DNA of 63,847 nucleotides, counting the filler, from Dugesia japonica (lineage: Eukaryota), in NCBI GenBank assembly GCA_001938525.1. It is 6 parts of 6 records of this genome, joined end to end, with 100 filler letters (N's around TTAATTAATTAA, not from the genome) between each part and the next. Parts side by side here need not be neighbours in the genome. Positions count along the whole stretch, not along the records: positions 55,611 to 63,847 come from MQRL01583147.1; 5 more parts are not named here. One strand, 5' to 3'. A model generated the notes under the pieces. The model worked only from the letters and a program-made list of their open reading frames with translations, had not been told where the DNA came from and did no database searches. This document shows, in pieces, positions 18,299 through 63,847 of the stretch (its first letter is position 1; each line of letters starts with the position of its first letter). A program made the translations under genes and the position numbers.

Positions 18299-18479
18299 TT
18301 GCAAAACATGAATGCACAGTCAAGCAATATGAATGCAAGTATAACAAGGCATTTCATGTTTGATCATTACTTGTTTTTCATTGGTCGATTTTAATTGGTC
18401 GATTTGTGTTAAATAGAGAATTGTATATAAAACATTAAATATTTCATTTTAATCAGTTGTTAATTTTTAAAAAACTAAA

Positions 18480-18777: not shown

Positions 18778-18805
18778 TAAATGTTATTTCTAAAATTACT
18801 TCTTT

Positions 18806-18905
18806 NNNNNNNNNNNNNNNNNNNNNNNNNNNNNNNNNNNNNNNNNNNNTTAATTAATTAANNNNNNNNNNNNNNNNNNNNNNNNNNNNNNNNNNNNNNN
18901 NNNNN
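18806..18905. other. Artificial contig linker
   Basis: N44-TTAATTAATTAA-N44. Confidence 0.97.
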
Positions 18906-36298: not shown

Positions 36299-36955
36299 AT
36301 GGCTAGTAAAAAACAAGTTATTAGTAAACTAAAACAACAAGAAGTTTTGGGTATAAATACTTCATATAATAGTATAAATAATTTAGCAAATCTTGAAAAA
36401 TTTACTATCACACAAATTGAAAGTTTTGTTAAATGTGAAATTACTAATAAAACAGNNNNNNNNNNNNNNNNNNNNNNNNNNNNNNNNNNNNNNNNNNNNN
36501 NNNNNNNNNNNNNNNNNNNNNNNNNNNNNNNNNNNNNNNNNNNNNNNGTTTCTAAATTTTGTGAATCAGAATGTAAGAGTAAATTAATAAATCAATTTTC
36601 TAAACAAGATGAAAGAAATATTGAAATTATAAAACAGTTAGAAATTGATTACCAAAAAGAAAAGGATGAAAATAATAAATTAATGGAACGATTAAATTTA
36701 GCTCAAAAACCAAAATTTATTGAACATCCAGGTTTAAAACTTACATTGATAAAATATGAAGATGATGATGATTTAATTATTACAAATGATGATTGTATTA
36801 ATATTGCTAAAAAAATAAAAGAAAATAGTGATGATTTATGTGAAAGGTTAACAAGATTAAAAGTTCCAGAAGAATATGAAGGAGATATAAAAAGAGTTTA
36901 TGCAGCTAAAAGTGATTTACCAAATTATACAGTAAAAACTTCAAACATGAAATAA
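36299..36955 (+). CDS. Unknown coiled-coil protein, paralog 2 (spans N gap)
   Basis: Tandem paralog of 35784-36275. Confidence 0.62.
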   Translation: MASKKQVISKLKQQEVLGINTSYNSINNLANLEKFTITQIESFVKCEITNKTXXXXXXXXXXXXXXXXXXXXXXXXXXXXXXXVSKFCESECKSKLINQFSKQDERNIEIIKQLEIDYQKEKDENNKLMERLNLAQKPKFIEHPGLKLTLIKYEDDDDLIITNDDCINIAKKIKENSDDLCERLTRLKVPEEYEGDIKRVYAAKSDLPNYTVKTSNMK

Positions 36956-37002
36956 GTACCTTTAAAGTAGTNTTTTATATAATCAAATTTTTTATTTATA
37001 AA

Positions 37003-39198: not shown

Positions 39199-39298
39199 NN
39201 NNNNNNNNNNNNNNNNNNNNNNNNNNNNNNNNNNNNNNNNNNTTAATTAATTAANNNNNNNNNNNNNNNNNNNNNNNNNNNNNNNNNNNNNNNNNNNN
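39199..39298. other. Artificial contig linker
   Basis: N44-TTAATTAATTAA-N44. Confidence 0.97.
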
Positions 39299-39884
39299 CA
39301 ACTCAAGTGTTAATTTTTATGGAAACGAATAACAAAATAAAAGATTCTGAGGAAACTACTTACACTCTGAATGTGCAATTATACGGCATACAAATTGGTG
39401 TATAAAAAATGTTTTAGTGACGTAATCATAAAAAGAAATCAAGAGTAAACAAAGAAAACTTTACAAATGTATATAATCCGCCATTTTGAATTTTTAAAAC
39501 TTTTTATCGTACAATAAAGAATTTAAAACTATCTATACCTTGTTTAAAAGATTAGTATTCGACAATGTATACTTAACAAGAAAATCACATAAGAAAGAAC
39601 AAAGAATTTTTAAAATGAGTTTTTGTCACCATTTCGTTATCAAAATGTATCAAACTTGATATCATTAGAAGGGTAATGAGATGACAAATACGTATTTTAT
39701 GTTTTCAAAACAGTTTGATAAAAATGTATTGAGTTATTTGTCATTTAATCCTTAAACATGAATGAAAAATGAATAAATTAACTGACAAATTGTAAATAAA
39801 TAAAATTTATTTTAAAAAGACTGTGGAAAACAATGTCAGATTTAATAAGAAAACACACATACAAATACTTTTGTTATATTTTCA

Positions 39885-40200
39885 TAGACTTCTTAGTAAT
39901 TTTTAAAACATTTCACTGACTTCTATCTAATTTTTAAAATTTTTTGAGGACTTCTATGCAATTTTCAAATTTTTCGGTAACGTCTAAGTTATTTTTAAAT
40001 TTTTTTGTCGATCTCTTTGTAATTTTTGAAAATTGTAATGGCTTCTATGTAATTTATAAAATATTTCACTAACTTCTACGTAAAATCAATAGTATAAAAA
40101 CCTCTATGTAATTTATTAAAAATTAAGATGTACTAAATTGTATGTAATTTTTGAAATATTTTAACTTCATCTATGTAATACTATTGGAATATCTATGTAA
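39885..40200. repeat. Degenerate ~32-nt minisatellite
   Basis: Recurrent acttctatgtaattttt(t/g)aaa core. Confidence 0.65.
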
Positions 40201-40289
40201 GATAATATATAAAAGACAATTATGTGAAAAATGTATTTAAAACACGCATGTTCTTTATTAGACACTTGAAATTTTATTCAATATCTGTC

Positions 40290-40960
40290 ATTTATTTATC
40301 ATTTATTTCATCATTGGACTGTGAATCAGTTATTTCCTTACCAATCATATTCTTATTTGTACTTGAATCAGGCATCACTTCATCAAAAATATCATCATTT
40401 GGAGGCATATCAATTATTTTGTCACCAATAATCACATAATTTGGTTGTGCATCAATCATTTTCTAAGTAATAATATCATCATTTGGTTAAGTATCGTTCA
40501 CCTCTTCCTCTGTTGATGCATCTATTGAAAAATGATTTAAAAATGAAATAGTATCTTAAGCAAAATTTTCGGTTTTAAAATCAAAACTATGCATTTAAAG
40601 ATCATTTTCATAAAATTGATCTTCTCAAAAAAATAAATAAATCAATTTCCTTCCCATTAAATCATAATTTCTCCTGACATATTTTGAAATGAAACATAAT
40701 TTCTTCTGGGCATAAAATAAATATCATTATAAATTCCTGTTAGCATAAATTTGTATAATTTGTATAAATATTTCTTTTTTAAAATTATTCAAAAAAAATC
40801 AAAATAATTTAAAATAAATTTAAGTAAAATTACTTTATATATGTATATATAATTAAATTTACGTTTTCAAATAGTTTTTTCCTAGACGATTCACCTGTTT
40901 TTTTATTGTAATTCATTTTTATCTAAATAAAATAACAATAAATTAATAAAGAAAAACTTA
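40290..40960 (-). pseudogene. Spliced acidic accessory gene downstream of adenain
   Basis: Exon MNYNKKTGESSRKKLFEN bounded by TTTAG and GTAAAT, then a decayed acidic exon after CTAACAG (about 40737). Same position as the 11826-12200 gene. Confidence 0.45.
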
Positions 40961-41194
40961 AAAAATTGTTGATATTGTTTTAAAATTTAGAAATTAAATT
41001 GTGACAAAAATTAATCAGTAATACCTTTTTATTCACTAGTTTATTAAGAAACCAATAATATTGCGAGAAAATTTTAAAATACCACAACGTAACATATTGT
41101 TGCATTAACACATTATTATTCATGAACATAATAAAGACTAATTTAAAATAAATAAAAAACATTTATTAATACATATCAAAACATGTACATTTTC

Positions 41195-41520
41195 AACTAC
41201 AATGATTTTTTAACCATAACAGACAATGTTGACCACATGTCTTTGTAAACGGATATTGAATTCTAATTCTATTATATTCAATTGGTTTTGATATTCTTGA
41301 GAGATGCGAGACCAACATTTGCGGATAAAAAAACCAAGCATATCAAAAACTAATATATTTATAGGTTTATGGTAAACTGCTATCCAATGTTCTCCACCGA
41401 GATTTGATGTGTGTGTATTGAAGATTATGGCTTTATTAACTGGAAAGTATGGAAGCTTGTCTAGGGGATACACTCCTAACCATGTTGAGCCAAGCCACTT
41501 TTTCCCGATTTGATTAATCT
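41195..41520 (-). pseudogene. Adenain protease copy with 1-nt frameshift
   Basis: GVYPLDKLP..GEHWIAVY..VFD, then a frameshift in an A-run before IQYPFTKTCGQHC. Confidence 0.88.
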
Positions 41521-41857
41521 TAAAAGAACTATTAAAATAAAAAATAAATTATATAATTAAGTATGCTTCATAACATATATTGATTATACCACATATTGTT
41601 TACNNNNNNNNNNNNNNNNNNNNNNNNNNNNNNNNNNNNNNNNNNNNNNNNNNAGAAATTAAATTGTGACAAAAATTAATCAGTAATACCTTTTTATTCA
41701 CTAGTTTATTAAGAAACCAATAATATTACGAGAAAATTTTAAAATACCACAACGTAACATATTGTTGCATTAACACATTATTAGTCATGAAAATAATAAA
41801 GACTAATTTAAAATTAATAAAAAACATTTATTAATACATATCAAAACATATACATTT

Positions 41858-42185
41858 TCAACTACAATGATTTTTTAACCATAACAGACAATGTTGACCA
41901 CAAGTCTTTGTAAACGGATTTTGAATTCTAATTCTATTATATTCAATTGGTTTTGATATTCTTGAGAGATGACAGACCAACATTTGCGGATAAAAAAAAC
42001 CAAGCATATCAAAAACTAATATATTCATAGGTTTATGGTAAACGGCTATCCAATGTTCTCCACCGAGATTTGATGTGTGTATATTGAGGATTATGGCTTT
42101 ATTAACTGGAAAGTATGTAAGCTTGTCTAGGGGATACACTCCTAACCCTGTTGAGCCAAGCCACTTTTTCCCGATTTGATTAATC
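41858..42185 (-). CDS. Adenain-like (C5) cysteine protease
   Basis: Catalytic H (GEHW), D (VFD) and Q/C (IQNPFTKTCGQHC) are intact. The true start is uncertain and may be spliced. Confidence 0.88.
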
Positions 42186-42295
42186 TTTAAAGATTTATTA
42201 AAATAAAAAATAAATTATATAATTAAGTATGCTTCATAACATATATTGATTATACCACATATTGTTTACACTAATGCCTTTTAATCCAAGTTCAA

Positions 42296-43109
42296 TTAAA
42301 CCAATACCGTTTTGTTGGCGTTTATTTGAATTTCCTTTTGAATACTCCATATATTACTTCATATGCCGGTACAGACAAAGCTTTTGCAAACTTTATATCC
42401 AGTCGTAAATTACCTTGACTTTGATTTATATAAATATCCGGAGGCAATACAAATGTAAAGAATGGATACTTGCTTTTGAATTCTTCAAGTGTGAGTCCGC
42501 AATTCCTATTTTTATTAAGGTATCCCATGTTTCTAACTATAGATTGCATGTATGTCATAATATAATTTTCCTTTTCAACATCTTGAGTATATATCTCTCG
42601 ATAAGCAGTATTTTTCAATAAGGAAATGGAAGTAGCATTGAAATGTTTGAATGTTAAACTTGAACCTTTATAACCACCATTTAATTGTTCTTCCTTTGAA
42701 ATGCGATTAGAATAAAGTTAAGCAAACAACGATCACCAAATATTTGCTCTTTCTTATTAGCAAAAGCAACTATTTCCTTGTTTCGTATAGAGTAAACTGT
42801 ATTTTGCTTATTTAATCCAATTTGATGACCTGTCAATACAGAAAGATCAACTCGTACGCGTTTAACCATTAATTTTGCATTCATTATTTCATATCTAGGT
42901 TTATAAGTTTGAGATTCCAAACACATTTCTGAAGATGCTCTTTTCATTCGAAAATGACCATTAACTCCAGGAATAAGATTTTTTTGTTGATCCAAAAATT
43001 CAGATTGTATCGATCTACACAGAGACAATGATTTATTTATACTCTTTTTTATATTTGCTTCTGTTTCATATTCCATCGCAGTAAGACATATATTCTTACT
43101 ATCACCATA
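42296..43109 (-). pseudogene. Major capsid protein, C-terminal part, interrupted at about 43109
   Basis: YGDSKNICLT, QKNLIPGVN, AKLMVKRV, TFKHFNA and GNLRLDIKFAKAL..EIQINANKTVLV*, homologous to 12740-13900. Confidence 0.9.
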
Positions 43110-45935: not shown

Positions 45936-47995
45936 GAAAAGAAAGTTTAAAGTAAAAGAAAAGATTGTGGAAATTTTCACTAGTTTTAAAAACGTTTATC
46001 TAAATTTCAAAGATTTTTAAAACGTTCAAGTAAATTTAAGAATTATTTCCTTGCTCTTTTACATGGGATATTTTGATTTTAGAAAAGTTCCTGTATATTT
46101 TGACTAGTTTCAAAGGTTCTAGTAAACTTTCAACAAGATTTTTAAAGTTTGTATAATTATCAACGATTAGAAAAAAGTTCTAATAAATTTTCATCAAGTG
46201 AAAAAAAGTTCTAGTAAATGTTTAATCATGTCTTAAAAATTCATGTAAATTTCAGATAAAATTATTTGACTTCATGTAAATTTGATAATATTATCGCACT
46301 CTTTCTAGTCATCATTGGTATTAGCTTCTTCCCGTTCTTGTTCATTTTTCTAACTTAATACAATAAAACATATCAAAGAATAAAGTTAAACCTAATTTTG
46401 TTAAATAATAATAGAATAAGTATTATTTGTTTGTCAATTTGTTGTTCTATGTAATAAATATTGATAAATTATAATGTAGTAGAACCTACTTCAAAAATTT
46501 GTTTATTGAATATATCTGGCTTAATGATCTTATATTTATGGATAAAACCCATATTTTCATTGTTAAAACCAGTATTTTTATGCTAAAACCCCTGTTTTCA
46601 TTAAACCTAAATTTTCATGATAAAAGCATTATTTCCACGATAAATCTTATATTTACCATTACCAAACCATGTTCTTGTTGCTGAGATCATAAATTTATCT
46701 ATTAAAACTAATATTTTCAATGATAAGATCATTATTTTCTATGTTGAACTATTATTTTCTAACATTGTATTTAAATATTGTCTATCAAAATGAAAAAAGA
46801 AACCTATAAAATCAAAGAGCAAGCAAAGAAACCAATGATCAAGCAGAGAGCCAAGTAGTAAACAAATAAGCAAAAGGATAATCAGATGATGAAAATATAC
46901 TGAAATAGTTATATTATTTTAAATAAAAAGCATATTATATTAGGACTCACTCAATCTTATTGTCTTCTTTTAATAATATATGACACTTTTTAAAGATTAA
47001 TGAAGTGAGGTCTATGAAAATATGAAGTTAAAATATGCAATAAGACATAATAGAAAATAGAGAAAATAAAGCTAAACATAGCTAGATGTAACTAAATAAA
47101 GGTAAATCAGGAAAATATAGGGTAAATGATCGAAAATGACTAAAGTTTGGGAAATGGTGGCAAAATAAGGCAAAACTGATAAAAAGAAGATAAATTAAGC
47201 ATATTAAATGACTAAGTATAGAATAAATACAGTATAATTAGTGACTAAATTTACTCTTTTAAATATTTTCTATGTCCAAACTCATATTTTCTAATAGTAA
47301 AATTTATATTTTCTATGATTGCTCAATAATATTTCTATAGTCCATAGTTTTTTTATGATGAAACTCATATTTTCAATATTGAAACCATATAATAATGTTT
47401 ACATTATAGTCTAAAGTTGGATTCTACTGATTGATGATTTGGTGTTTAAATTATAAATAAACCCATGAACACCAAGGTGCATACAGGTTTGTCAAAGTGC
47501 CCACAAGAATACTAATGTGCAAGCAAAGATGAAAGCAAGTGGTGAAGGATTTTATTGAAAGGAATACTTATATTAAACAAGATAATACTCTTATATTTTT
47601 TCATGTTGAAACTATATTGAACTCAAAGTGTAATGGACTTATCCAATAAAATAAACCATTACTTATTAATAGTGGCTTTTCTTAACACGTAATCATTCAA
47701 TAAAACTAAAACATGTCTTTTTATTGATATTCAAAGCTTATTATATAAATATGAACAAAATATGAAGAAATAGGGTAAATGATGGGTGAAACAGATCAAC
47801 ATATAGGAAAATCGGGCAAAATTTAAGCAGTAGGACAAATGATTGGGGAATCGGGCAAATCAGGTAAAATATGGTAAAATGAAGTAAACAGTGGAAATAA
47901 TGTACAAATATCGTAAAAAACAGGATGATTAATATTTCAATGTCTATTGACAAAGTTATAAATAACTTAGTATTATTTATCTATTTAAATAAAAA

Positions 47996-49150: not shown

Positions 49151-49654
49151 AACTTAGTCATAATTTTGTAGATTGGATGTTATTATAAATTATTCAATGG
49201 TTACCTTTATCTATTTAAGATTTTTATTTTTATCAATTTAACCCATTTTGAGTCCATTGTCTCTATTTTATCTACATATTCGAGCTGAGTTTAGTTATTT
49301 TAGTGTCAATTCCTGTCATTTTGTACTTTTACATTATTTTCCCTGTTTTATCCTATTTTTTCCACTCTCTTTCCCTTTTTTTTATCATATTTCTCATTAT
49401 TCACATTTATGTAATAAATTTTGAATATTAATAATGAGACTTGGTTTAATTTATTGAATGATTACGTGTTAAGACAAGCCACTAATAATAAGTTATGGTT
49501 TATTTTGTTGGATAAATCCATTATAATTTGAGTTCAATGTAGTTTCAACATGAAAACAATAAGAGTATTATCTTGTTTAATATAAGTATTCCTTTCAATA
49601 AAATCCTTCCCCACTTGTTTTCATCTTTGCTTGCTCAATAGTATCCTTCTTGGT

Positions 49655-50730
49655 GGTGCTCCTTTATTTAGGTATCGAGTTTCCTCGTCTTTATTTACTA
49701 ACCCTTCTATATGTCCTGCTTCTTCATCTGGTTCAATTGCATTGAAGTAATTGTATCTATTTCTATGTTGGATCCCGCTGTATCTGCTGCTGATCCTTTG
49801 GCATGTTCTCTCATTTTCTCTACATTCTGTTGATCTATGACCCGTTCTACCACACTGAAAGTATTTCCTTTTCGCGTAATTCTGTCTCATGTGACCAGGT
49901 TCTCCACAACCAAAACATTTCATTTCCTTTTTTAACGTACAATCTCTATTCAGATGTCCTGCTTTATGGCATATCCAACATTCACTTGTTTCATTCTGTG
50001 GGCAATGTGGTCTCGTGTGGCCCGGTCTATGACAACTTTAGCATTCTATTCTATCATTTACTCTGCTAATATCTTCTTGTTTCCGAACCGGAGATTTTAC
50101 CTGCTTCAGCGACCCTTTTTCCAATACATTAGAATAACTTCTCACTACATTGATATGTTCTTTCTCTTCCTCCAATTTATCTAGTAATATTAATGTATGT
50201 TAAATTCTTCCACTGTTTTTAATTTTTGCAGTATCACTTCTTCCCGTATTCTACTACTTCCACGAGCGTTTACCAGTATTTTCATCACCAGTCCCTTATT
50301 CGACAGTTTTTTTATTCAAAAATACTATCGACTAACAATTCTACTTTTTCGATAAATGTGTCAACTTTTAACTTGCCCTATCTAAAGACAATCAATTTCT
50401 ATAGTTTTTCTACAATGTCTTTATCTTTCTGAAATGCTAGTCTCAATCTTGACTGGAAGCCCAGTGTTTTTTTTCGCAGTGTTTAAATATTTATCAAACA
50501 ACTTTGAATCCAACACGCAAGTTACCAATTTTTCTTGTTCATTAGAGTTAGAAATCCTCCGAGTTCCCAAATACAGCTGTTTAATAAAGGATTCCAAGTC
50601 ATCCTTTTTTTCAATATTCTTTGGCAGTATCCGTTCGGTTATTCAATCGATATTAACCGCTGACACCATGTTATATTTATCTGGATTCATTTAAAAGGCT
50701 AAATATATATATATAACCAAATTAATTAAA
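49655..50730 (-). mobile_element. gag: Gypsy 5' fragment: LTR end, PBS and gag with four zinc knuckles
   Basis: ..TAACA|TGGTGTCAG at 50668 (Leu-tRNA-like PBS start). Knuckles CHRPGHTRPHC, CWICHKAGHLNRDC, CFGCGEPGH and FQCGRTGHRSTEC. Confidence 0.85.
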
Positions 50731-50994
50731 GATAATTTACAACTTGACAAAATTCCACAGTTTAATAATGAAAATTTAAAATAACAGATTCAAAGTTACA
50801 AATAAAAGTTACACTTAAAAAACAATGATTAAAATGTTTCAATGAAAAAAACTATTACGTAAATTTGATACAATAATCCACAACATCTGATAAACTTCTT
50901 TTGAGGAAATAATTATTATTTAATAATTTGGAGCCAATAGAAATTGAATTAATTCTGGATAAAGATTTTTAATATACTATTCAATAATCATTTC

Positions 50995-51091
50995 TCTTAT
51001 TAAGTATAGTTTGTAGTAATAAAATAAAAAATGTCTAACAATATGAATTCTGATTTGCAAAATAAATTTACAATTGAAGATTTACCTAACA
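50995..51091 (+). mobile_element. LTR 3' end (solo or 3' LTR) of the 7940-9510 Gypsy family
   Basis: Matches 7956-8052, and the match ends at CA, just before that element's TGG. Confidence 0.6.
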
Positions 51092-52881
51092 TTTGCTATT
51101 ATAATATTTTGATCATAATACACAACTCTCGCTATCATAAAGTTTTTACGTACACAATACTAACTATCACTAAGTATTAACGTAAAAACAGTACAATATT
51201 CAATTTAAAATGAATTAAATGGTAAACTCATCAGGAAAATAATAATGCTACAATGACTTTATGGGTATCAATGCAGTACTAAGTAGAAAAAATTAATAAT
51301 GACAAATAGCAATAAATATTGATAATTGTCGGAGCAGTAATTAAAACACGAAAAAAAATAATAACGACTAAATATGAGAATNAATAAAAATGAAAATATA
51401 TTGTTTTTATGAGCCATGATTACCACNTTTATTAAAATGATATGATAAATTAAATATGATATAATATTATAATAAAATATAATATAAGATTAAGAAAGAA
51501 TATTGTTAGCTCCCACTGATGCATTGATTCCAGAATAAAACATATGCGTGGAATTAAGGATTGGTAACTTTTTCATTTTACGCTCATTAGTATTGATCAT
51601 AGCAAAAAATGCCTTGGTTTTGGAAGGCTATGGCGATGAGTCTGATAACATCGCAATTAAAGCAGTTGAAATAGCTTTTAACAACTGTGAAAAAAANTTG
51701 GGGAGATGTTAGGTGTTAGAGTAAAGATGAAAGTGCGCGCAGAAAGAGAAAAAATACAAATAAATTGTTAAAAAATGATTGAAAATAACAATTAAGAATA
51801 TGGAAATGATAAAGATAATGTTATTATTTTGACCAATTACATTATTTTAGTGCTCAGCAAACCACACATTTTCGGGCATAGACCCATGTGATAATTATGG
51901 TCTTATGGAGCTGTGTAAGCCACTGGGTCACGGAAAATCTGGATCAAGGTCAGGTAGGATCTCCTGGTGGACTGATCCTGTGGACGTTCGTAGTCTTTAG
52001 TGTCTCGATAGGAAGATTGGGTGCGACTGGTATAGATTTGTTTCACCTTGTTCGAGTGTGTTGTTCTCCAATCCAGTAAAATGACGTTGAGTTATAAGCA
52101 GTTAACGAGCATTGTATCATATTTAATGTATAAAATAATACATATTAATTATATATCGGAATAAAANNNNNNNNNNNNNNNNNNNNNNNNNNNNNNNNNN
52201 NNNNNNNNNNNNNNNNNAAAGAATCTGATAAAAAATAAAGTGATAACTAAATGAAATTATTAAAATGGATTGGAATGGCTAAAGCGGGTAAACAGTTATT
52301 AATTAATTATTCATATATATTTAATGGGGTAAAATGCCAGCGTTCGAAATAAAAGAATAATGCTCTCACAGATAGACATTAAAATCAATACATTTTTCAG
52401 AGCAACACAAACACAAATTCACCGAAAACTAACAAATTCGTCAACAGCATAATCTTAATACATTGTAAATCAATTTACAACGGGTTCTAAACCAGATAGA
52501 CGAATTATCCGATCACAAAGTAAATCCAGATCCAAATTATTTGATGATTAAGAATTTGACCAAGCTTTCAAAGGTAGGGTTACTTATATAAATAAAAAGA
52601 AAACCAACGAAAAATAGAAAACCCATCAACTTTCAATATCAAAATCCAAAAAGGGACATCCGTTTCTATTGAAAATTTACCAAATCCTTCCAAAGATTTA
52701 GTTAATTTAACAACAGTACTATCAAAAGCAAAGAAAATCATCAACCTTTGATAAAGAGAGTCAGGAAATATCTCTCTCTACTGAAGATTTAATAATTCTC
52801 TCGGAATATTCAAACCATACAACTACAACAAACAGTAACAGCACTATTCCTAATAAAACAGGTATAGAAACAGCAGTAAAA

Positions 52882-53790
52882 ATGATATCAAGTCAAGAAA
52901 AATCGTCGGGACACTTTAAAATGAATTTCACTGACGAAAATTTCAGTGNTGATCCTGAGAAACTACCAGAATTTTTAATAATAATTTATGACGTATACTC
53001 AAAGGTTAATAATTTGACAGAAACCGAAAATATCTCCAGATTAATATCATGTATGACTGGAGCAGCTAAAAGATAATATCTCGATAAAAACAAACAACTA
53101 ATCAAATTGCCAAGCTTATGGGATAGAGCCAAAAAAATTCTCACTGATAATTTCACCAGCCAAAGAACAATAGGCCAAGAATTTAAAATATTTGCAAGTC
53201 GACTACAAAACAAAGATGAATCATATCCCACCTATGCTAGTGAACTCAAATGACTTGGTAAAATAGCATACAAAGGAGAAGTATTCGATGATCATATATT
53301 TACCATCTTTATCGATGAGATACGAAACAATGAAGTCAAAAAGTAAGTAGCAATGAATAGACAAAAATCAGTTGAGGAAGCAATTGGGTTACCTATGCTA
53401 ACCAAACTAGTCTGCAAGCGATCAGAATGAATCTTTGCCGTAGAGGAAGAAAAAAACAGCACTTAAAAATAGAACAATTTATAGCTAGAACATAAGCATT
53501 AATGAAACCATTCACATCTAGACAAGACAGAAATAATAACATGCAATCTAATTTTCGACGAAATAATAAAAAGAAAGCAATAGAAATAAGTTTAAAACAT
53601 GTAATGCAAGAGAACAAAAGGGTAACTGGGTGACCAAAATTCTAATTTCAGGAGATTCCACAACACAGAACAATATACTGCAACTATTTCGGAAAGAATG
53701 GACACTTGAAAAGAGATTGTTTCAAAGAAACAAGTGTTATTATTGCAACTAAATGAGTCACACCAGCCGAGATTACTTAAACAGTAGAGG
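52882..53790 (+). pseudogene. gag: Gag of giant Gypsy element
   Basis: LISCMTGAAKR, major homology region RLQNKDESYPTYASELK*LGKIAY, knuckles CNYFGKNGHLKRDC and CYYCN*MSHTSRDY. Confidence 0.85.
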
Positions 53791-53999
53791 TAGAAAATGG
53801 AACTCCTTCAGCATTTTGAATAATACAAAAGTGCAAAAGATAATGATGAAAAATTAAGACTTAAAACGACAGTTGACTGAGAATCAAAAAAATCAGCAAC
53901 CAAAAAGAATTAATATGGTCACGTAAGATAATTAAAACGCTCAGCAGTATGCTGAATGGCAAAAAGTAGCAGCTAGAGATCATCAAGCTCAACATGAGC

Positions 54000-54430
54000 C
54001 ACACAAAAACTTAATTAATATATTAAGATCGACATGCTACTATAACGAAACCAGCTTTAGTGAGATAGACGAATATTTCTGCTCAACAGAAGTAAATGTT
54101 ACGAAAGCTTCATAAGCGATTGATGAAATGAAGTTGTTACATATAAATTCTCCCGAATTAATAAAAATTAATTAAATAATAAAGGAAACATTTGGGGTAC
54201 GAGACTTTCTAAGCGTAGTATGCGAGTTACTGCGTGATGGAATTACAAAAGGCAAAGCACTGGTAACCATAGCGTTCCTATTTTACCAGGCTATATACAC
54301 ATTGTCAAAAGACAATCCAGCAAAGTTCCCAGACGAATGACAGATCCGCATGACAGGAATCATACAAAGAACGATTGAACCATGGATCCACCAACAGGGT
54401 ATTTGGTCAGCTTTCATTAAATCAGTGTCA
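54000..54430 (+). pseudogene. Bcl-2-family domain inside the retroelement
   Basis: One frame with stops at 54113, 54173 and 54338. BH1-like FLSVVCELLRDGITKGKALVTIAF, BH2-like IEPWIHQQGIWSAFIK, weak BH3-like KAS*AIDEM. Confidence 0.8.
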
Positions 54431-54491
54431 TCACAGAATTGCAATCAAAAGCACCTTACAACAAAAGTGAAAAAAGTGTTAAAAGCACTAT

Positions 54492-55510
54492 ATGTTCAGT
54501 GTCATGTTACCGATTTTAATTATGCTAGTGTTGTTAATATTACCTGGAACACATGGAATGGTTACGTTCGATTGCGATGAAATGGACTTCGAAGATAAAG
54601 TTTACTCCTTAATAAATACAGATGAGTGCCCTGGTGCGAAGCCAGTACAATTGTGGCCTATAAAAAAAAATTCGGTCTATCAAATATATCAAGAGTCAGA
54701 ATATTACCAAGCTATGGTAAAAGAGTGTAAAGTAACAGTAGCAACCTTTGTATTTAATTGTGGAAATAAGATTTGGTCATCAGTGATCGACACAGGATAA
54801 GAAAATAAACCAGTATTATTATCTAGACAACAATACAAGCAAGGATTTTCGTTTGGGAAGATAGACGTGAAAATAGGGAACACGGTAACAGCTAAATGGG
54901 ATTTGTAAGCAGTCAACAGTTAATCACAGTTCGATCAATATAACCAGTAGACGGACAATGTACAACGGGTTCATATACGATAAATGTAGTAGTAGCAAAA
55001 AATGTGGTGGTAATAAAAAATTACACAGTGGAATTATAAGAATTTAAAGCACTATTTGATGTAGATGATTTAACAATGAAAACAAAACCAGCGTGTAGAG
55101 CGTCAGACAAATCATGTAGTTTAGGAATATCAACACTGGTATACGATGTAGATCTAAAGGAATGTAAAATGACCTTTTTAAAGAAGGTAATATTTAACGA
55201 ATATCAAGGAAAGCGTTATCAAGAACGAAAAGAAAAGTTAGAATCGTTTACAGAGAGTAAAACGTCAGATAAAGCCACCGAGAATGACCACAAGGATCGA
55301 AAATGAAATGAGTGGACGCACCAATTGTATTGGTATCAGTTAGCGGGAAAGATTGAATCAGACTAATAAAAGATAAAACAATATCATAATGTGAAGGAAT
55401 TGTATATAAAACAAATAATAAAGGCGTACATATCTCAAAACAAAAGTTAGCAGGAGCACAGCATGTCAATGGAAACGAAGATATAAAGCTACACTTTTAT
55501 GTTAATAATA
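54492..55510 (+). pseudogene. env: Envelope glycoprotein N-terminal half, chuvirus G-like (class III)
   Basis: Signal-like hydrophobic stretch, then VTFDC..YSLINTDECP..YQIYQ..VKECKVTV..FNCG. Ends IVYKTNNKGV..EDIKLHFYVNN at the contig end. Confidence 0.75.
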
Positions 55511-55610
55511 NNNNNNNNNNNNNNNNNNNNNNNNNNNNNNNNNNNNNNNNNNNNTTAATTAATTAANNNNNNNNNNNNNNNNNNNNNNNNNNNNNNNNNN
55601 NNNNNNNNNN
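55511..55610. other. Artificial contig linker
   Basis: N44-TTAATTAATTAA-N44. Confidence 0.97.
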
Positions 55611-56197
55611 AACTCAATGATTTCTTGCTCAAGTGCCTCTATATATTGTTTCTGGAATTCATTTTTCTGCTGGCATTCTTGTATAATAGATTCGAACTCG
55701 AGAGACAGTTTATCGATGCCAGTGCGTACACCTTCTCTATTAGCCAAGCTGGTTAGGAGTTGGTTTTCTGTAGCTAATCGGTGTTTTTCGAATTGGGTAT
55801 TAAATAGTTCCGTTCTCAATAATTGAGTGTTTTCTTGTTCTATAGTTAGTTGAATTTCCAATTCTTTACGTTTAGGTTCTACGTTTCCGTAATAATTTTT
55901 CCATTCGCGAGCCTGTTTTATCGCATTTATTTTTGCTCGGTTTGCATCAATGTTGCTCTTGATATATTTTTGGTGGGATTTGCAGGATCGTTTTTTATTT
56001 TCTAGCTCTTGGTGCGCTCTTTTGACTTGACTTTCCAACTCACTATTATATTTTTGTAATTGTAAATTGAAGAGGGCATCTATTTTAGCTTCAAGTTTCC
56101 ACTTTAAGACCTCAGGTACAGTGGTAAGGGTTTGAGTTTGAACCTGTAATATTCGCATTTCGTTACGCAAATGATTTATCAAGTTTTCAGTGTTCAT
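55611..56197 (-). CDS. Long coiled-coil accessory protein (truncated by contig end)
   Basis: 195 open codons rich in E/Q/K/L with heptad character. Confidence 0.65.
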
Positions 56198-56288
56198 TTC
56201 TAAAATCAGATAGGGTGATTAATTTATTATAATACTATTTTGACAATTATAAGTATATATGCATTATTTACATATTTAAATTTATTTA

Positions 56289-56440
56289 TCATTGAAATTT
56301 TATCCCTAATGCCCTACGTTCAATTACCTTTGGGCACATAGGGCATTCGTTTAAATTTATCGCGCATCTATAACAAGTTTTGAAGTGCTCACATGGTAGA
56401 AATATGATCTCTATAGTCCCTTCGAGGCAAATGATACATT
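56289..56440 (-). pseudogene. C-terminal C3HC4 RING finger of IAP/MDM2 type
   Basis: CIICLEGTIEIIFLPCEHFKTCYRCAINLNECPMCPKVI, followed by a stop 10 codons later. Absent from the ORF track. Confidence 0.88.
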
Positions 56441-58876
56441 CATTATCTAATAATACCCATTCTTGTTCGTATTTTACTTGAGGTTCTACTAGTTTACGTG
56501 ATCTTTGATATAATTTGTATGGTGTGATTAACTCCGAACCTTTCTCGGTGACTGTTTTTTTTATCAGTTGCTTGATATTTTCCGACTTGTCTTTAAGATA
56601 TTATGCAGCCTGTTGTAGTGGATATGGTCCTGGTTGCCTATATTGTTTCCATCCCGCCATTTCCTGATTTATTATCGAATGTACCTCTCTATCTTGGGTA
56701 ATTGTTATGCTTCTTTGTCCTATCTCTTTCCCCTTTCTGTCCCACACGACCGTTTTGTGTTGCATATACCGCCATATCATAGTATGGTAAAGGTATTCGT
56801 TTTTGGGACATATTTTTGTTACCTGTTCTCCTGTATCTTTGGTTACCCATTTTTGTGCTTAAAGTTATTTTCTGAATAATACATTGCAAAGTTAACTTCT
56901 CGTGCGAGTTCGAATTCATTGTTCGCTTCGTAGACTAATGGATTTTTTTCGTGTTTTAACGTTATATCCCATATTTTTTCCATCTGCCACTTGTAGGTGT
57001 CAAACATCAATAATTTTCCTTCTATTGGTTCTTGACTTAGGAATTGTATGATGATTCTCCCTTTTACTTGATGCAGTTTAATCATAGTGCTTTTTTGACT
57101 TTTGATTACTGGTGTTAGAATTAATTGTCCGTAACTGTACAGTGTTTGGGTTCTCTGTTCCCTCCGGAGTCCCGTACGCCTTATTGTTTTGACGTGTATT
57201 TTTTTCTCCTTGATGAATATTCGGTGTTCTGTTAGGACTGGTTCGTTTACCTGGCATTCCTGCCCTCTGATCCCCTTTATGATCATTATTATGGTTGTCA
57301 GTATAATTTGCACACTAGGAATTCCATTCTGAGGTTTTACTTGTACTTGCTGCATTGCCGATGTTGGTAAAGAGAGCTCTACGAGAATTATTCTTGTGAT
57401 CCTGTACAGCACTAGTGACATAGACAGTCCTCTTCAGATATTTCCGATAATTCTCATTGTCCACCAAATCAATATGCCATAATCCCAACTTTTGTTGATT
57501 ACCGCCCATAACAAGAGAGATGTTTTGACTATTATTTCGACTATAATCTCCTTCTTGCTTCTTTGTAGTAACTCATTTTTTGATTTTCTTGGTTCCGTTT
57601 GATCTACCTCATCTGGCATTAATGTCGCTTTCATTTTATTTGCCTTCCCCGACATTATTCCGGCTACTTGTCTTTCTTTTTTCTCCATTTCGTCCCATTG
57701 ACTCTGAACTGTCTCTCTCTTCGATTCCCTTTGTTATTTAAGCCCTTCATGGGAATTTGCGATATTGATTGGTTTCGTTTTCTTCCAAGTTAATTTACTC
57801 TGGATAATTGGTATGGTCATGCTCCCTGGCAATTGGATCTCCAATGGTTCGTATACTCTAATCCAGTTCCATTGTACTAATGTATGGTGAAATAGATGAA
57901 TAGATGCTAACAATTCTTCGCTGTATACTTCGGTACAAGATAGACACAACTTTCTTAAGGTGGATTGCCGGAAAGGTGCTTCAATTGGTAATTGGATTTG
58001 TGACCCTTCACAATCTTTTTTGAACCCATTTTCCCGTCTTGATAAGCATGTCTTCTGGTCGTATATAGCCTTTAGAGTGATTTTTAGTATAATTTGCGTC
58101 TTCTTTATACATTGTGAACAATTTCCTAGCAGCTGAATTTCTGACAGTGGACATGTTATCTTTCTGATATGAACACAAATCTCCTATGTTCTAGGTGTTT
58201 GGATTCCTTGATATGTGATTGGATAGATTGTAGAGGCGCTCATAGCTTCTATCATAAGTGATCGGCGTATTTGGTTACCTGAATTGAAAGACAATGTTTT
58301 AGCCTTTTGCTTCATAACAATTTTTTTATTATTAACCAACGCCGCACTTTGCTGTATTTGCTGGGATTGAATATTACTCGGTGCATGTTTGATTCTACCT
58401 ATTTTACTTGTTTGTTTTAACCCCGAAAAATTTGGTGGGGTACTTATGATTGTACTACCATCCTTAGCTTTTTCTTGGTTAACGGCGTATCTAAAAACAT
58501 TCATCTTTAATACCCTAGTTATCTTTTGCAATTCTGTTTCTGTTTTTTCTGAATTTGCAGCAGGTAGGCCCGTTTCTTGTTTTACGTTTTTCTCTTTTTC
58601 CGATATTAATCCTTTCCCGTTTTCTTTAAACTCAGTTTTCACGCTGAGACTGTTTTCCTTTGACGTTGTTTCCCTTCTCCTCCATGGTCAGTGATTTATT
58701 AATGATTTCTTGAGTAACATCATGGCTTGTTGTGACCGTAATGGATAGCTGTGTGAAACACTTAATTCTATTCTTTTCGACTTCCGAGGCCGCCTTGGCC
58801 CTCTATGTTCCGTTGCAGTGGGCTCGGTGCTTGTGACCGGTGCAGCTTCTTCTGTCACTGCTGCCTTTTTGCACAA
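56440..58876 (-). pseudogene. Post-integrase polyprotein extension (basic linker, CxxC region, hydrophobic segments)
   Basis: ORFs starting at 58876, 58642, 57949, 57688 and 57421 are all in the integrase-core frame. One frameshift at about 56850 leads into the RING frame. Confidence 0.65.
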
Positions 58877-58879
58877 GTA

Positions 58880-60000
58880 GGCGTGGTAGATCTTTGGCTT
58901 CTCTAGTAGATTCCCTTTCTTTCAAACCTTGAGGTTAGTTTCCGTTACTTCGATTACTTCATAAGGTCCTTGCCATGGTCTTTTTAATTTTGATGTCGTA
59001 CCGACACAAATGTCTGGTAAATTGATTAATACCATGTCGCCCTTTTTAAAGGAGTGTTTTATTGCTGATTTATCGTGTAAATCCTTATAACTCTCCTGGT
59101 GGAATCCTACGTTCTCCTTGGCCTGTTTTCATATTTTCTGCATAGTTTCTTTGAAGTTTGCGGCGAAATCGGTTTCGTCTTGATATTGTGTTATTGGTGG
59201 TTGGAATTCCAAGTCAATAGGCATGTTACACTCTCTGCCATACATGAGACCGAACGGCGTGTATTTAGTAACAGGGTGCACACTCATTTGATATGCGAAC
59301 AGGCATAGCTGAATATGTTTATCTCAGTTATTTTGTTCCTTTTGGGCGTAACTAGATAACATATTGATCAAGGTTTTATTAAATCGTTCTGTTAGTCCAT
59401 CTGTTTGTGGGTGATAAGGTGAGGTTCGTAATTGATGGATTTTAAGGAAGTTTGATATTACTGCTAAGATGTTACTCATAAAGTTCTTCCCCTGATCCGT
59501 CAATATTTTCTTTGATGTACCATATCTGCTGAAGAATTTTAGCACCAAAATGTCTGCTATAGTGGTTGCTTTCTGATTCTTCATCGGAAATGCCTCTGGA
59601 AATTTGGACAGATAATCCATTATGGTAAGTATGCAGATATTTCCGCTTAGGGTTGGTGATAATGGTCCAACTACATCCATAGCAATGATTTCCATTGGCG
59701 CCGCTGGTACGGCAATGGGTTTTAATAACGCTTTTACTCTTTTCCTGTTCCTCTTCTGGCAGCACATATTTGGCATTTAGCAATCCATTCCTTCACAGAT
59801 TCTATGATATGTGGCCAGTAATATTTCTGTCTTAATTTGGATTCGATTTTCTTGTGAGACATATGTTCTCCTAGTACCCCATTGTGATATTGTACAAGTA
59901 GCTTATACCGTCTTGCCTTAGGGATAACTAACACGGTATTATCTCCATCCTGAGCTGTCAACCATCACTTGGTAAGTGCATACCGACCACCGTTCTTCTT
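58880..60000 (-). pseudogene. Gypsy integrase
   Basis: HNGVLGEH..KYYWP..KCQIC, IAMDVVGP, ILTDQG, RTSPYHPQTDGLTERFN and KLKRPWQGPY. Confidence 0.95.
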
Positions 60001-60149
60001 TAGGTGCTCCTTCATTTTAGGTTCACATTCTAGCTTCTCTAAGTTATAATTTTGCATATATTATGTGATGATTTTGATTTCTTCGTCTTCAGCTTGTGCT
60101 TGTTTTAGTCCATCAAAATTTTGATCTTCCGCTAGAATGAAGTATACCA

Positions 60150-60800
60150 CTTTTAGATTCCATTTACGTAATCGCACAAAAACACTACGCAAGTCATTGA
60201 GGTGCCCTTCAAAGGTTGGTGAGTAGATCAGTAGATCATCGATATAGGCCATACTTTGGCCTATATCGATATGCCGTGGGTTACGCAATTCATCATTCGT
60301 TGGAACGAGGCTGGCGCGTTAGTAAGCCCGAATGACATCCGGAAAAACTGGTATAAGTCTTTGCTTGTGGAAAAAGCCGTTTTCTCCCTATCTTCTGGTT
60401 TGATTTTTATTTGCCAATAACCGCTTCGCAAATCCAACGTGGTGAATATTTTAGCATTACACAGTAATTTCATTAATTCGTTGATATCTGGCAATGGATA
60501 CGTGTCTTTCTTAGTTTGAGCATTTAACCTTCTGTAATCGATACAGATTCGTTGTGTCCCATCCTTTTTATCTACTAACAACACTGGCGACTGCCATGGT
60601 GAACAGCTAGGTTCTATTACACCGATCTTCACTAATTTAGCTGTTTCTTTATTTGCAAATTCCTTTTTTACCACTGTCATGGCGTATGGTTTCTGTTTGC
60701 ATAGGGTTTCGTCTGTTAGTGGAATCGTATGCATTGTCGCTGTGCACCTACCCAACTCTTCATCATTCCATGCAAAGATATCTCTGAATTCTTCTTGCAG
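60150..60800 (-). pseudogene. Gypsy reverse transcriptase; RT thumb and RNase H deleted at about 60150
   Basis: SPWQSPVLLVDKKDGTQRICIDYRRLN, LDLRSGYWQI, FGLTNAPASFQR and AYIDD, then an abrupt jump to the pre-integrase linker (LKQAQAED). Confidence 0.95.
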
Positions 60801-61208
60801 TTGCAGTATCGCTTGTTTCTGTTCCTCCGATAAAGTTTCCGTTTCTACTTTAAACGTTCTGTCGATTTCTGGTTCAACGGCTACTTCTTCTATTACGTCC
60901 GGATCTGGTTCGATGGGAGTTAGTGTACCCATTCTGGAGTTTGGTTTGATCGTAATATATTTTTCCGTGAAGTTAACTAAACTCACTGATACTTCACCAC
61001 TTTTGTTGACCATGGTTATTCCTCCTGCTGTAGGTAACAAATCCGTCATATGGTTCGAAATAACAATCTCCTTCATAGGCGCTTTTGGTGCTGACTACAC
61101 AATATACTTGGCATCTGCTAGGTACCAAAATCTCTTCTGTAGTAAATACTTTGTGGTCCTTCACATGGGTATACCCCTCCAGTGACTGTAATCGTAATGT
61201 TGACAAGT

Positions 61209-61500
61209 TTAATATCCGTTTTTCATCAAGACTGGAAGAATTTCTGTTCCCAGTATACATTGTCCCATCATTTCTATTATGATCATATTATGTTTAATTT
61301 TGTTATCCTGATATTCGACTTCACAGGCTAATTCACCAAAAATTTTGAGGCTACTACCATTTGCCACATCTGCTGTAGTGTTAGTGGGTAATATGTTTCT
61401 GTATTCGGTTATCACAATTTCATCTATTGATAACAACGATATGGTTGCTCCTGTGTCCAATAGAGCTGTTATGGGTCGGCCATTTGATTTTAACCATAAT
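61209..61500 (-). pseudogene. Aspartic protease 2
   Basis: ITALLDTGATISLL, flap VANGSSLKIFG, CILGTEIL. Confidence 0.9.
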
Positions 61501-61809
61501 AGTTAGTACTGGTCCGCCGTTGAGACTTGTGCATACCACATCCGAAGGGTTATGACTGGTGTTCGATTGTGTTTTGTTTTTCCATCTTGGTTCTCGTTCT
61601 TGGAACTTTTTCTAATCGTCCCTTATCACGGTGGCTGTATTGGTGATTTTCTGACGATCTTGATTTGAATTGTTTTGTTTCTTTCGGCCAGTTGGCCGCT
61701 GTCGCCGCCGGTTGGGTGTTAGCTGATTCCATTGTTGTGGTCGTTTCCGTTGGGTTATTATTCGAGTTTTCTGATATCCTACCGGTGCATATTCCTGATC
61801 ATAATTTTC

Positions 61810-62115
61810 CCGTATCGTTAGTTTTCTCAAATCCAATATTCCTCCAGGACAGAGGCGTGACAAGAGGTCCAACCCCAATAGACAGTCGAATGTCACTTCG
61901 TTCATTATTTGTAGTTTATGTCAGAGCCGAGTTCCGTCGCTTTCTATTGCACATATTGCTTCTCCCACGGGGCAGATTTTTTCTCCAGAGGCAGTGATGA
62001 AAACTCCTTTAGTGATTGTTATTCTAAGTAGGCGATAGTCTTCTAATATTTTTTATGGACTAACGTCGTACTTGCTCCTGTATCAATAAGGGCTATTGCC
62101 CATCTTCTGTCGATT
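61810..62115 (-). pseudogene. Aspartic protease 1 (additional retropepsin)
   Basis: AIALIDTGASTTLV (DTG at 62084-62076), frameshift, flap ITASGEKICPVG, then DCLLGLDLL. Confidence 0.85.
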
Positions 62116-62525
62116 TTTTATCCTTTTCTGTAATAATTTTGCTTTCTGAGAAATCATCATACATACGGTTTGAGTCTCTAACTTATCANNNNNNNNNNNN
62201 NNNNNNNNNNNNNNNNNNNNNNNNNNNNNNNNNNNNNNTACGGTTTGAGTCTCTAACTTATCATCCTCCGTAAGTTGGTTATTTTGAGTGCGCAAGTTTT
62301 GTTCGATTACTCTTCGGTCCATAGTTGATACATTATTCTCTGTTAGTAGTGCCATATTCGGGGCTTGTGGTAGGCTTATATACGGATTATTGTACATGGG
62401 ATTTGGTGCCCATACTTGTTGAGGTGGTTGGTTCATGGGTTGCCAACCATGTTGCGGATAAGCGTTATAATACATTTGTGCTGGTGCTGGCGTGCTTTCT
62501 TCTCCTCCGAATTTTAACGCGTTTT

Positions 62526-63847
62526 TCAGTCGTTGCATTTTGCTGATCTTTTCGTATTGCTGCCTTTTGAATTCCACATCGTATTCCAAGGCAGTCTTAT
62601 AACTAGGTACATGAAGTGTTCCACTGCTTTCTCATCGTCGCTGCTATTACTACTTTCATCCTTGTTTTTAAATATTTCCTTAAATTGATTGAAATATGAT
62701 ATTTTCTTTTTAGCATTGCTCATTTCTTCGCATAACAATTGGAGTTGCATTAAGACTTCCTTGTCTGATCCTCTTATTTGTCCGAGCTTGCAAATGAATC
62801 TCTTTACCCTGTCAATATCCTTGGAGTGACTGTTAAGTACCATAGCTTTCACTAAAAATGGAAATATTCCCGTTACTATTTTCCAATTCACCTTCTTCTC
62901 TCTTTTGTATATATCAAAACACGCGTACAATTGAGTAATCACTACTCGTGTTACCGAAGTTATCAGCATAACTCCCAACAATCCTGCCATTGCTTGTCCA
63001 AATATGATGAATCGTCCCCACATTTTCCGCATGACGTTTTCTGTGACTTTTTGAAAGTGGTCTGTGGATAGTAATGCGTCGTAATTTACTCATCCGTCTA
63101 TGTTAGTTCCACTGGTTAATTGTACTATATTTGATAGAATTTGCATTCTTTGGACTGTGAACAGCATATATTCCCTGGTCTTCTCTAAATCTTCCCTACT
63201 ATAGATTCCTCCCTTGTTTACATCAATTGGAGTGAATTGCATACCTCCATTTAATCGTAACATGGAGAATTTTCGTGGCTCGATCCTCACTGCCATTCGT
63301 TGTGGAAATCTTATCCATGATCCATCTGTCATTATGTATTGTGGTCCAAACACATTAGAGCAGTTTATGATATTTGGCCTATAACCCAGTGGTGATATGA
63401 TTCGCGTAATTGGTTGCACTTAACGTTTTTCGTTGTTATGGATAATTTCTATCTCATTGTAGCAATTTTTTGGATTAGAAGAGAACTCCGCCTCTATGGC
63501 CTTGCATTTGTATAGGTACATAAATTCTCCTACTACTCTACCGAATTGTCCTTTTTCTAAAGGAAGTAGTGGAGTGACACTATCTGGGTTTGTAACCGCC
63601 ATTGCTAATTTTTTCTTTAATATTTCTTTATTTAATTTGCAGTCATTTTGAATAAGATCGTGGTACATACGTCTGATGGTATCTTGCATCCGATGGAACA
63701 GATTATCCATTTTGTTATTGGCGTACAGATGCAATTTGATATCCTATGACATCACGGTGGCTTGTGCTGTTTGTATTCGATGTTCCGACACGAATATTCC
63801 TTTGTAGTTCGTTTTATACACTATTTGCCCACACTTTGACATCGAAT
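62526..63847 (-). pseudogene. env: Envelope glycoprotein C-terminal half with TM anchor, chuvirus G-like
   Basis: DCKLNKEILKKKLAMAVTNP..VVGEFMYLYKC..CYNEI..PITRII..CSNVFGPQY..GGIYSREDL..WGRFIIFGQAMAGLLGVMLI. One frame with stops. Confidence 0.8.

What the first reader, a model, noticed from the sequence alone, without database searches (positions are those of the whole stretch)
61810..63847. Chuvirus-like class III fusogen placed upstream of pol
Seen within one contig: the env ectodomain, TM segment and a Gln/Pro-rich tail run directly into the first protease and then RT. Known: env-bearing Gypsy elements normally have env after pol (errantiviruses, with baculovirus F-like env), and chuviral glycoprotein capture is known for BEL/Pao elements. 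A gag-env-pol order with this fusogen in a Gypsy would be an independent acquisition.
Basis: partly seen in the sequence, partly recalled or inferred. Interest (0 to 1): 0.72.

Follow-up and report, generated by a model that had tools for sequence, protein, structure and literature searches.

The report
Decayed gag-env-pol Gypsy retroelement, known type
This is a broken copy of a Gypsy-type jumping gene whose herpes/chuvirus-like membrane-fusion gene sits in front of its enzyme genes, an arrangement already published for flatworm, nematode and bryozoan elements; the host is likely a planarian, and the one extra is a doubled protease that several relatives share.

Summary
The anatomy is real; the novelty claim is not. 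On the minus strand the window ends inside a glycoprotein (PF24664, E 6e-55). It is homologous to chuvirus G and has a gB-like class III fold. After it come a TM helix, a Gln/Pro-rich linker, two retropepsin domains, a Ty3-like RT and an integrase. This copy has stops, frameshifts, a scaffold gap and no RNase H, so env does not run in frame into PR here, and gag lies outside the window. Relatives do carry env-PR-RT-RH-IN in one ORF, and no LTR separates env from pol, so env is not a nested insertion. The architecture is in print: planarian Burro has env in frame between gag and pol (PMC6431247), and gB-type GAG-ENV-POL Ty3/gypsy elements are described in Platyhelminthes, Nematoda and Bryozoa (PMC13524379). 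The window's env matches the published S. mediterranea element 2 at 14 of 17 overlapping residues. It groups with polyprotein envs, not with the one named chuvirus G. One unreported detail remains: 2 or more proteases after env in 6 of 13 relative clusters.

The parts
62904..63845 (-). Env, C-terminal half of the ectodomain of a gB/chuvirus-like class III glycoprotein plus TM; cut by the window end; 3 internal stops
   Evidence: PF24664 E 6.1e-55; stops; fold searches
62916..63017 (-). Transmembrane helix of env (residues 277-310); a weaker hydrophobic stretch follows at residues 319-341
   Evidence: hydropathy; helix in the model
62362..62511 (-). Gln/Pro-rich low-complexity linker between the env tail and protease 1, in a different frame from env in this copy
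   Evidence: composition; frames; no Pfam hit
62189..62238 (.). Scaffold gap of 50 N flanked by an identical 25-nt repeat (62164-62188 and 62239-62263); likely overlapping contig ends
   Evidence: D3; joints across it in runs X1, X2, X3
61846..62117 (-). Retropepsin domain 1 with DTG motif, split over two frames
   Evidence: protease profile hits iE 4.5e-8 and 7.4e-12; tblastn with P0154 E 9e-6; weak Pfam hits; 27% identical to PR2 over 70 aa
61209..61487 (-). Retropepsin domain 2 with DTG motif
   Evidence: PF13975 E 5e-5, PF00077 E 2e-4; profile iE 1.6e-19
60930..61025 (-). Possible dUTPase-like spacer between PR and RT (weak)
   Evidence: PF00692 E 0.014, below the curated cut-off
60148..60572 (-). 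Reverse transcriptase core (frameshift before the YIDD segment). About 250 aa of RT thumb/connection and RNase H are missing at about 60148
   Evidence: RVT_1 E 9e-18; best PDB hit Ty3 RT E 1e-36; P0154 matches end at residue 1869 and resume at 2118 at adjacent bases 60148/60147
59408..59925 (-). Integrase: H2C2 zinc-binding domain and rve core
   Evidence: PF17921 E 3.6e-12; PF00665 E 1.9e-11
52936..55509 (+). Second, different decayed element of the same kind: gag-like region (52936-53325), degenerate zinc knuckle (about 53676-53723), hydrophobic signal and env N-half (54483-55509); ends at an N gap
   Evidence: PF24664 E 1.4e-14; tblastn with relatives (the gag match is only E 0.009); signal hydropathy 2.57; 71 of 132 nt identical to the finding's env

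Best explanation
This is a decayed genomic copy of a Ty3/gypsy LTR retroelement with a gB/chuvirus-like class III env placed before pol, likely from a planarian and likely of the published gag-env-pol (Burro / Smed-errantivirus) kind. Shown: the domain order env-TM-linker-PR-PR-RT-IN in the window, and single ORFs with env-PR-RT-RH-IN in relatives, some with a zinc knuckle or gag domain in front. Inferred: intact members make one gag-env-pol polyprotein. An internal hydrophobic signal before the ectodomain would send env into the ER lumen, and the TM helix would stop transfer, leaving linker, proteases, RT and IN in the cytosol. Signal peptidase and the element's own proteases would then release the parts. 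Env trimers on budding particles would mediate membrane fusion, so the element could pass between cells or into stem or germ cells. This copy is dead: it has stops, frameshifts and no RNase H.
For: Env: PF24664 E 6e-55. phmmer gave 842 hits at E<=1e-3, among them P0041 (24%, E 7e-26), whose cluster holds the Hubei chuvirus-like virus 1 glycoprotein. A family profile hits only herpesvirus gB in PDB (33 of 33 rows, best E 0.004). The model of the window env is closest to chu-like and mononegaviral G in BFVD (best E 2e-14) and to gB in PDB (best E 1.8e-3). The whole ectodomain of relative P0008 (40% identical) matches gB at E 2e-13. Order: 10 of 18 long or top hits scanned have env upstream of a protease in one ORF, 5 of 18 also RT-RH; so do P0154 and P0156 and, without RH, P0002. 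P0007 and P0042 have a CCHC motif before env; P0014 has a weak Retrotrans_gag hit (E 1.7e-4). Topology: 10 of 12 relatives have a hydrophobic segment just before the ectodomain and 12 of 12 one after it. Linkage: no long repeat or LTR in 50000-63847; contigs of diverged copies tile env to PR2 in 30 of 30 bins in all 4 runs. Kinship: the window env groups with 12 polyprotein envs against 16 stand-alone glycoproteins, support 100/100. The first residues of P0001 match the C-terminal ends of the published Smed_errantivirus_2 and _1 domain I-II sequences at 14 and 12 of 17 positions (by eye). Burro-like relatives exist: P0008 with a Bcl-2 hit before env, and P0156, 4844 aa, with ankyrin.
Against: Gag, LTRs and PBS of this element are not in the window, and no genome is held. 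The host is not identified directly: no host gene was recognised and run names are coded. The match to the published S. mediterranea elements rests on a 17-residue overlap read by eye. Fold scores are modest: TM-score 0.2 for the half-protein and no PDB match at E<=1e-3; 0.34-0.43 for P0008. The ESM Atlas gave Baculo_F (class I) clusters for relative P0003, but only at score 0.75-0.76, a lead-only level. No single listed contig spans env to RT. Processing, budding and fusion were not tested.
Confidence: 0.9

Rival explanations
1. An independent, recent capture of a chuvirus glycoprotein by a Gypsy lineage, not covered by published cases.
For: Clear homology to chuviral G. PMC13524379 says the GAG-ENV-POL elements are not monophyletic in the pol tree, so several origins are possible.
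Against: Its nearest relatives are polyprotein envs at 33-41% identity, against about 24% for chuviral G. The AU test rejects window + Hubei chuvirus-like virus 1 G as a clade (p 6.4e-5). It matches the published S. mediterranea envs. Only one named chuvirus was in the tree, and the tree is unrooted.
Confidence: 0.04
2. Chimera: env-PR1 is the end of one element and PR2-RT-IN belongs to another, joined by nesting, recombination or scaffolding.
For: Two proteases only 27% identical; a scaffold gap between tail and PR1; lower summed depth around 61445-61739; one contig each in X1 and X2 joins 61485 to 61976, skipping 490 nt.
Against: Contigs of diverged copies overlap across PR2-linker-PR1 (61308-61625, 61567-61776, 61724-61962, 61936-62106) and across the gap. 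8 of 15 long relatives have 2 or more proteases after env in one ORF. No LTR lies in between.
Confidence: 0.04
3. A BEL/Pao (Anakin-type) element, or a free chuviral endogenous viral element next to an unrelated pol.
For: BEL/Pao-linked homologues are among the hits (P0100 carries DUF5641).
Against: The RT is closest to Ty3 among solved structures (no BEL/Pao RT appeared among the 12 hits, so this is not a fair contest). The integrase has the H2C2 domain. Relatives carry Ty3/gypsy-type RT_RNaseH. No BEL/Pao-specific Pfam family was found in the pieces scanned. P0100 falls on the other side of the env tree.
Confidence: 0.02

Closest known systems
HSV/gB-type GAG-ENV-POL errantiviruses of Platyhelminthes (Smed_errantivirus_1-6; Chary and Hayashi 2026, PMC13524379)
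   Same: Ty3/gypsy pol; gB-type class III env before pol; env overlap 14 of 17 residues identical to element 2 and 12 of 17 to element 1.
   Different: This copy is decayed, not intact. Gag and LTRs are not visible. The paper mentions protease once and does not discuss multiple proteases; its figures could not be seen.
Burro / GYPSM1 giant Gypsy elements of dugesiid planarians (PMC6431247 section 7; Grohme et al. 2018 not held)
   Same: Env in frame between gag and pol, with hits to mononegavirus glycoproteins; dUTPase-like spacer between PR and RT (weak here); apoptosis/ubiquitin-type extras (IAP-like RING downstream here; Bcl-2 and ankyrin in relatives P0008 and P0156); decayed fragments reported in D. 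japonica.
   Different: The region upstream of env, where Burro has MATH and Bcl-2, is outside the window, so membership is untested. That paper likened the env to gypsy Env and did not call it class III.
Non-canonical nematode gag-env-pol metaviruses (Sacco et al. 2022; seen only as cited in PMC13524379, not held)
   Same: Env and pol in flipped order in a Ty3/gypsy element.
   Different: Other host phylum; no sequence comparison made.
Chuvirus-G-bearing BEL/Pao elements of mosquitoes (Dezordi et al. 2020; seen only as cited)
   Same: Same glycoprotein family (PF24664).
   Different: Other retroelement superfamily; env follows pol (P0100 has DUF5641 before env); other side of the env tree.

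Membership tests
Ty3/gypsy LTR retrotransposon | Order PR-RT-RH-IN | tested here: met
   PR, RT, H2C2-rve in that order; RH deleted in this copy but present at that place in relatives
Ty3/gypsy LTR retrotransposon | RT of the Ty3/gypsy clade | tested here: inconclusive
   Best PDB hits are Ty3 RT (E 1e-36), ahead of caulimoviral, foamy and retroviral RT; no tree with named BEL/Pao references was possible
Ty3/gypsy LTR retrotransposon | Flanking LTRs, PBS, TSD | not testable with these tools
   5' end is outside the window; no genome held; no LTR pair in 50000-63847
HSV/gB-type GAG-ENV-POL errantivirus | Env with gB-like class III fold | tested here: met
   whole ectodomain of relative P0008 E 2e-13 to gB
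HSV/gB-type GAG-ENV-POL errantivirus | Env upstream of pol in the same element | tested here: met
   window order; single-ORF relatives; tiling contigs
HSV/gB-type GAG-ENV-POL errantivirus | Gag upstream of env | not testable with these tools
   outside the window for this copy; seen in relatives and weakly in the second element at 52.9-55.5 kb
HSV/gB-type GAG-ENV-POL errantivirus | Intact ORFs (the paper's inclusion rule) | tested here: not met
   stops, frameshifts and RH deletion; this is a dead copy, so it could not be listed as an intact member
HSV/gB-type GAG-ENV-POL errantivirus | Platyhelminthes C1a cysteine pattern in domains I-II | not testable with these tools
   domains I-II lie beyond the window end; only the last 17 residues overlap
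Burro | Giant ORF1 with MATH/Bcl-2 before env; BIR and ankyrin domains | not testable with these tools
   upstream part missing; no BIR or ankyrin hit in the pieces scanned
Burro | dUTPase-like domain between PR and RT | tested here: inconclusive
   PF00692 E 0.014, 15.7 bits against cut-off 22
BEL/Pao with chuviral env | BEL/Pao pol domains and env after pol | tested here: not met
   env is before pol; no BEL/Pao Pfam family in the pieces scanned

The most novel reading that the evidence does not exclude
Putting a membrane-anchored env inside the gag-pol polyprotein went together with repeated amplification of the retropepsin domain: 2 here, and 2 to 4 (5-6 in P0156) between env and RT or the ORF end in 6 of 13 relative clusters, with more after IN in two proteins, nearly all keeping the DTG motif. 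The copies could be specialised proteases for releasing env and accessory domains, or pair within one chain like cellular pepsin. Three full-text searches found no description.
Probability: 0.25. Interest if true: 0.45.

Novelty: new member of a known kind. Interest (0 to 1): 0.15.

Why it matters
As stated, little: it is one more dead copy of a published architecture. It adds that env-pol fusion in one ORF with a class III fusogen is common in this group, and links the 2019 Burro env to the gB-type family by inference. If the multiple proteases are functional and specialised, they would be an unusual solution to processing a polyprotein that crosses a membrane, testable in vitro and in a planarian model.

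Tried and rejected
No genome held. Word-index protein searches were nearly blank: 1 hit each and 0 for long forms; only the full HMMER search found the family. Metagenome scan with RT gave 2 loci: L001 (1.3 kb, not examined further) and L002 (one ORF of 150 aa or more; not pursued). Viral contig scan found none. Single-sequence PDB search with the env found nothing (best E 0.18). The ESM Atlas gave only lead-level Baculo_F hits for P0003 and could not be run on the window's own env. Expression: no RNA holder listed; in one RNA run 62 of 13.6 million reads laid, all only partly, none at 99% or more, so nothing shows that this copy is transcribed. Summed contig depth is not a copy number. Earlier findings of the scan: none. 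Grohme 2018 and Sacco 2022 are not held. The first env tree (63 rows, quick search only) had long branches and misplaced one stand-alone row (P0064) among polyprotein envs; the second tree left long and near-duplicate rows out (29 rows that I picked from 137 passing the coverage filter; LG+G4, no mixture model). The region after IN (58687-56843) matched no Pfam family and no relative. A weak SpvB hit on a coiled-coil ORF (E 0.035) was treated as noise.

Full report
Observation. The finding lies on the minus strand at the right end of an AT-rich window (GC 13-40% per 2 kb) that is full of scaffold gaps and decayed mobile elements. Reading from the window end inward, 63845-62526 gives a 441-step frame with three internal stops (P0001). 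Residues 3-314 match PF24664 Monjiviricetes_fusion positions 269-579 of 653 at E 6.1e-55, so only the C-terminal half of the ectodomain is in the window. A single strong hydrophobic segment lies at residues 277-310. A Gln/Pro-rich patch (up to 40% per 30 aa) follows at about 62511-62362 in another frame. Then comes a 50-N gap whose flanks carry an identical 25-nt repeat. After the gap there is a first protease split over two frames (62117-61846), a second protease (61487-61209), a weak dUTPase-like hit, RT and an H2C2-rve integrase. About 250 aa of RT thumb and RNase H are absent at 60148. 'Within one contig' and 'run directly' are not true of this copy, and gag cannot be seen.

Class III homology. 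A full HMMER search gave 842 proteins at E<=1e-3 and 25 at E<=1e-30; the best 150 were listed. One of the 10 clusters looked up holds the glycoprotein of Hubei chuvirus-like virus 1 (representative P0041, 24% identity, E 7e-26); two others hold insect genomic proteins. A profile of 89 family members hit 33 PDB sequences at E<=10, all herpesvirus gB (best E 0.004). An AlphaFold2 model of the window env (pLDDT 77, pTM 0.44) has the long central helix and beta-rich crown expected for the C-terminal half of gB (knowledge of the fold). It matches chu-like and mononegaviral glycoproteins in BFVD (best E 1.9e-14) and herpesvirus gB in PDB, though only at E 1.8e-3 and TM-score 0.2. The whole ectodomain of a 40%-identical natural relative, P0008 (pLDDT 82), matches gB at E 2e-13, TM 0.33-0.45 for post-fusion forms. 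Against this, the ESM Atlas listed Baculo_F clusters for relative P0003 at score 0.75-0.76, which the tool calls a lead only.

Env belongs to the element. No LTR-sized repeat lies in 50000-63847. The stretch belongs to an abundant repeat family: 16,825, 12,123 and 12,254 contigs of three DNA runs laid on it, mostly 90-95% alike. On 61150-62900 all 30 bins were covered in 4 of 4 runs. Among the 31 records shown, of over 11,000, pieces overlap across PR2, linker and PR1. One 649-nt contig links the env tail to the Gln/Pro patch, and joints cross the N gap in three runs. No listed piece spans the whole stretch, and one contig each in X1 and X2 (one sample) skips 61485-61976. In relatives the fusion is explicit. 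Ten of 18 long or top hits scanned carry env upstream of a protease in one ORF, five of them also RT and RNase H. P0154 and P0156 do too, and P0002 has env-TM-PR-RT. P0007 and P0042 read CCHC-env-PR-RT-RH-IN. A second, different decayed element at 52.9-55.5 kb (+) shows gag-like region, knuckle, signal and env in order, with a weak gag match.

Origin of env. In a 29-row maximum-likelihood tree (rows picked by me from 137 that passed a coverage filter), the window env and 12 polyprotein envs are split from 16 stand-alone glycoproteins at 100/100. The stand-alone side includes the chuvirus G and a BEL/Pao-linked protein. Holding the window env with the chuvirus G is rejected (p-AU 6.4e-5). A 63-row quick tree agreed, except for one long-branch row. 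The tree is unrooted and has one named chuvirus, so it argues against a recent capture from that lineage and says nothing on the ultimate donor.

What is known. PMC6431247 (2019; passages and section 7 read) reports for planarian Burro an env between Bcl-2 and PR, with hits to arthropod and fish mononegavirus glycoproteins. [quoted passage not shown] PMC13524379 (eLife 2026) I read as abstract, sections 6, 14 and 22, part 1 of 2 of sections 5 and 9, passages and supplement rows; its figures were not available. It reports that Ty3/gypsy elements of Nematoda, Bryozoa and Platyhelminthes carry HSV/gB-type env as GAG-ENV-POL. It lists six from S. mediterranea with 1 to 215 copies. It also found 114 arthropod gypsy elements with the chuvirus-like glycoprotein. 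Its domain I-II sequences end where the window's env begins, and the overlap agrees at 14 of 17 residues with Smed element 2 and 12 of 17 with element 1 (by eye). Sacco 2022 and Dezordi 2020 were seen only as citations. Burro-like relatives are among the hits: P0008 has a Bcl-2 hit before env (E 1e-3), and P0156 is 4844 aa with ankyrin. The host is therefore likely a triclad planarian; this is inferred, not shown.

Mechanism. Shown: domain order, fold class, and one-ORF env-pol in relatives. Ten of 12 relatives have a hydrophobic segment just before the ectodomain, and all 12 have one after it. Inferred from that and from general knowledge of membrane insertion and class III fusogens: an internal signal translocates the ectodomain and the TM stops transfer. 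Gag before and pol after stay cytosolic, signal peptidase and the element's proteases release the parts, and env trimers drive fusion of particles with target cells. None of this was tested, and this copy cannot do it.

The leftover. The two proteases here are 27% identical and both keep the DTG motif. Of 15 long relatives, 8 have two or more protease domains after env, 6 have one (one of them cut at the ORF end) and 1 has none. Merging near-identical pairs gives 6 of 13 clusters. That profile was built from these same proteins, but Pfam independently reports two or more stretches in 7 of the 8. P0156 has 7 strong domains and 1 weak one in all. Three full-text searches found no description of this for LTR elements. 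The library lacks most subscription papers, and published figures of Burro may show it.

Verdict. Real, correctly recognised, and of a published kind. New member of a known kind; interest 0.15.

Noticed in passing
window 61209-62117 (-); proteins P0004, P0005, P0006/P0154, P0009/P0156, P0013, P0014: Tandem or multiple retropepsin domains with DTG motifs in env-bearing Gypsy polyproteins, up to 7-8 in P0156, some after the integrase.
   Followed up: partly
window 56289-56600 (-) and 55612-56218 (-): C3HC4 RING (PF13920 E 1.5e-12; IAP-like by recalled pattern) and a coiled-coil ORF downstream of the integrase, both covered by repeat-family contigs. Possibly accessory ORFs of the element, as in Burro.
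   Followed up: partly
window 56843-58687 (-): About 600 codons continuing the integrase frame with few stops; no Pfam hit and no match in 15 relatives.
   Followed up: partly
window 52936-55509 (+): Second decayed gag-env element of a different family, facing the first and ending at an N gap.
   Followed up: partly
window 10500-19500 (-) and 37600-43100: Polinton/Maverick-like remnants: rve integrase (E 5.5e-9), weak adenoviral-protease hit (E 0.0095), endonuclease VII-like motifs in polymerase-like ORFs, and a P-loop ATPase-like piece near 17500-17780.
   Followed up: partly
window 2600-5000 (-) and 8700-9500 (+): Further decayed Gypsy pol fragments (RT_RNaseH_2 E 1e-30; tblastn).
   Followed up: no
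window 49621-50037 (-), with a repeat at 47505-47822 / 49336-49648: Multi-zinc-knuckle gag remnant (PF00098) and a nearby 320-nt inverted repeat pair at 84% identity.
   Followed up: no
protein P0007 (HBK71150.1): An env-PR-RT-RH-IN polyprotein filed in NCBI as a Flavobacteriaceae MAG protein; likely an animal contig binned into a bacterial genome.
   Followed up: no
window 36916-37404 (+): C2H2 zinc-finger ORF beside the Polinton-like polymerase remnant.
   Followed up: no
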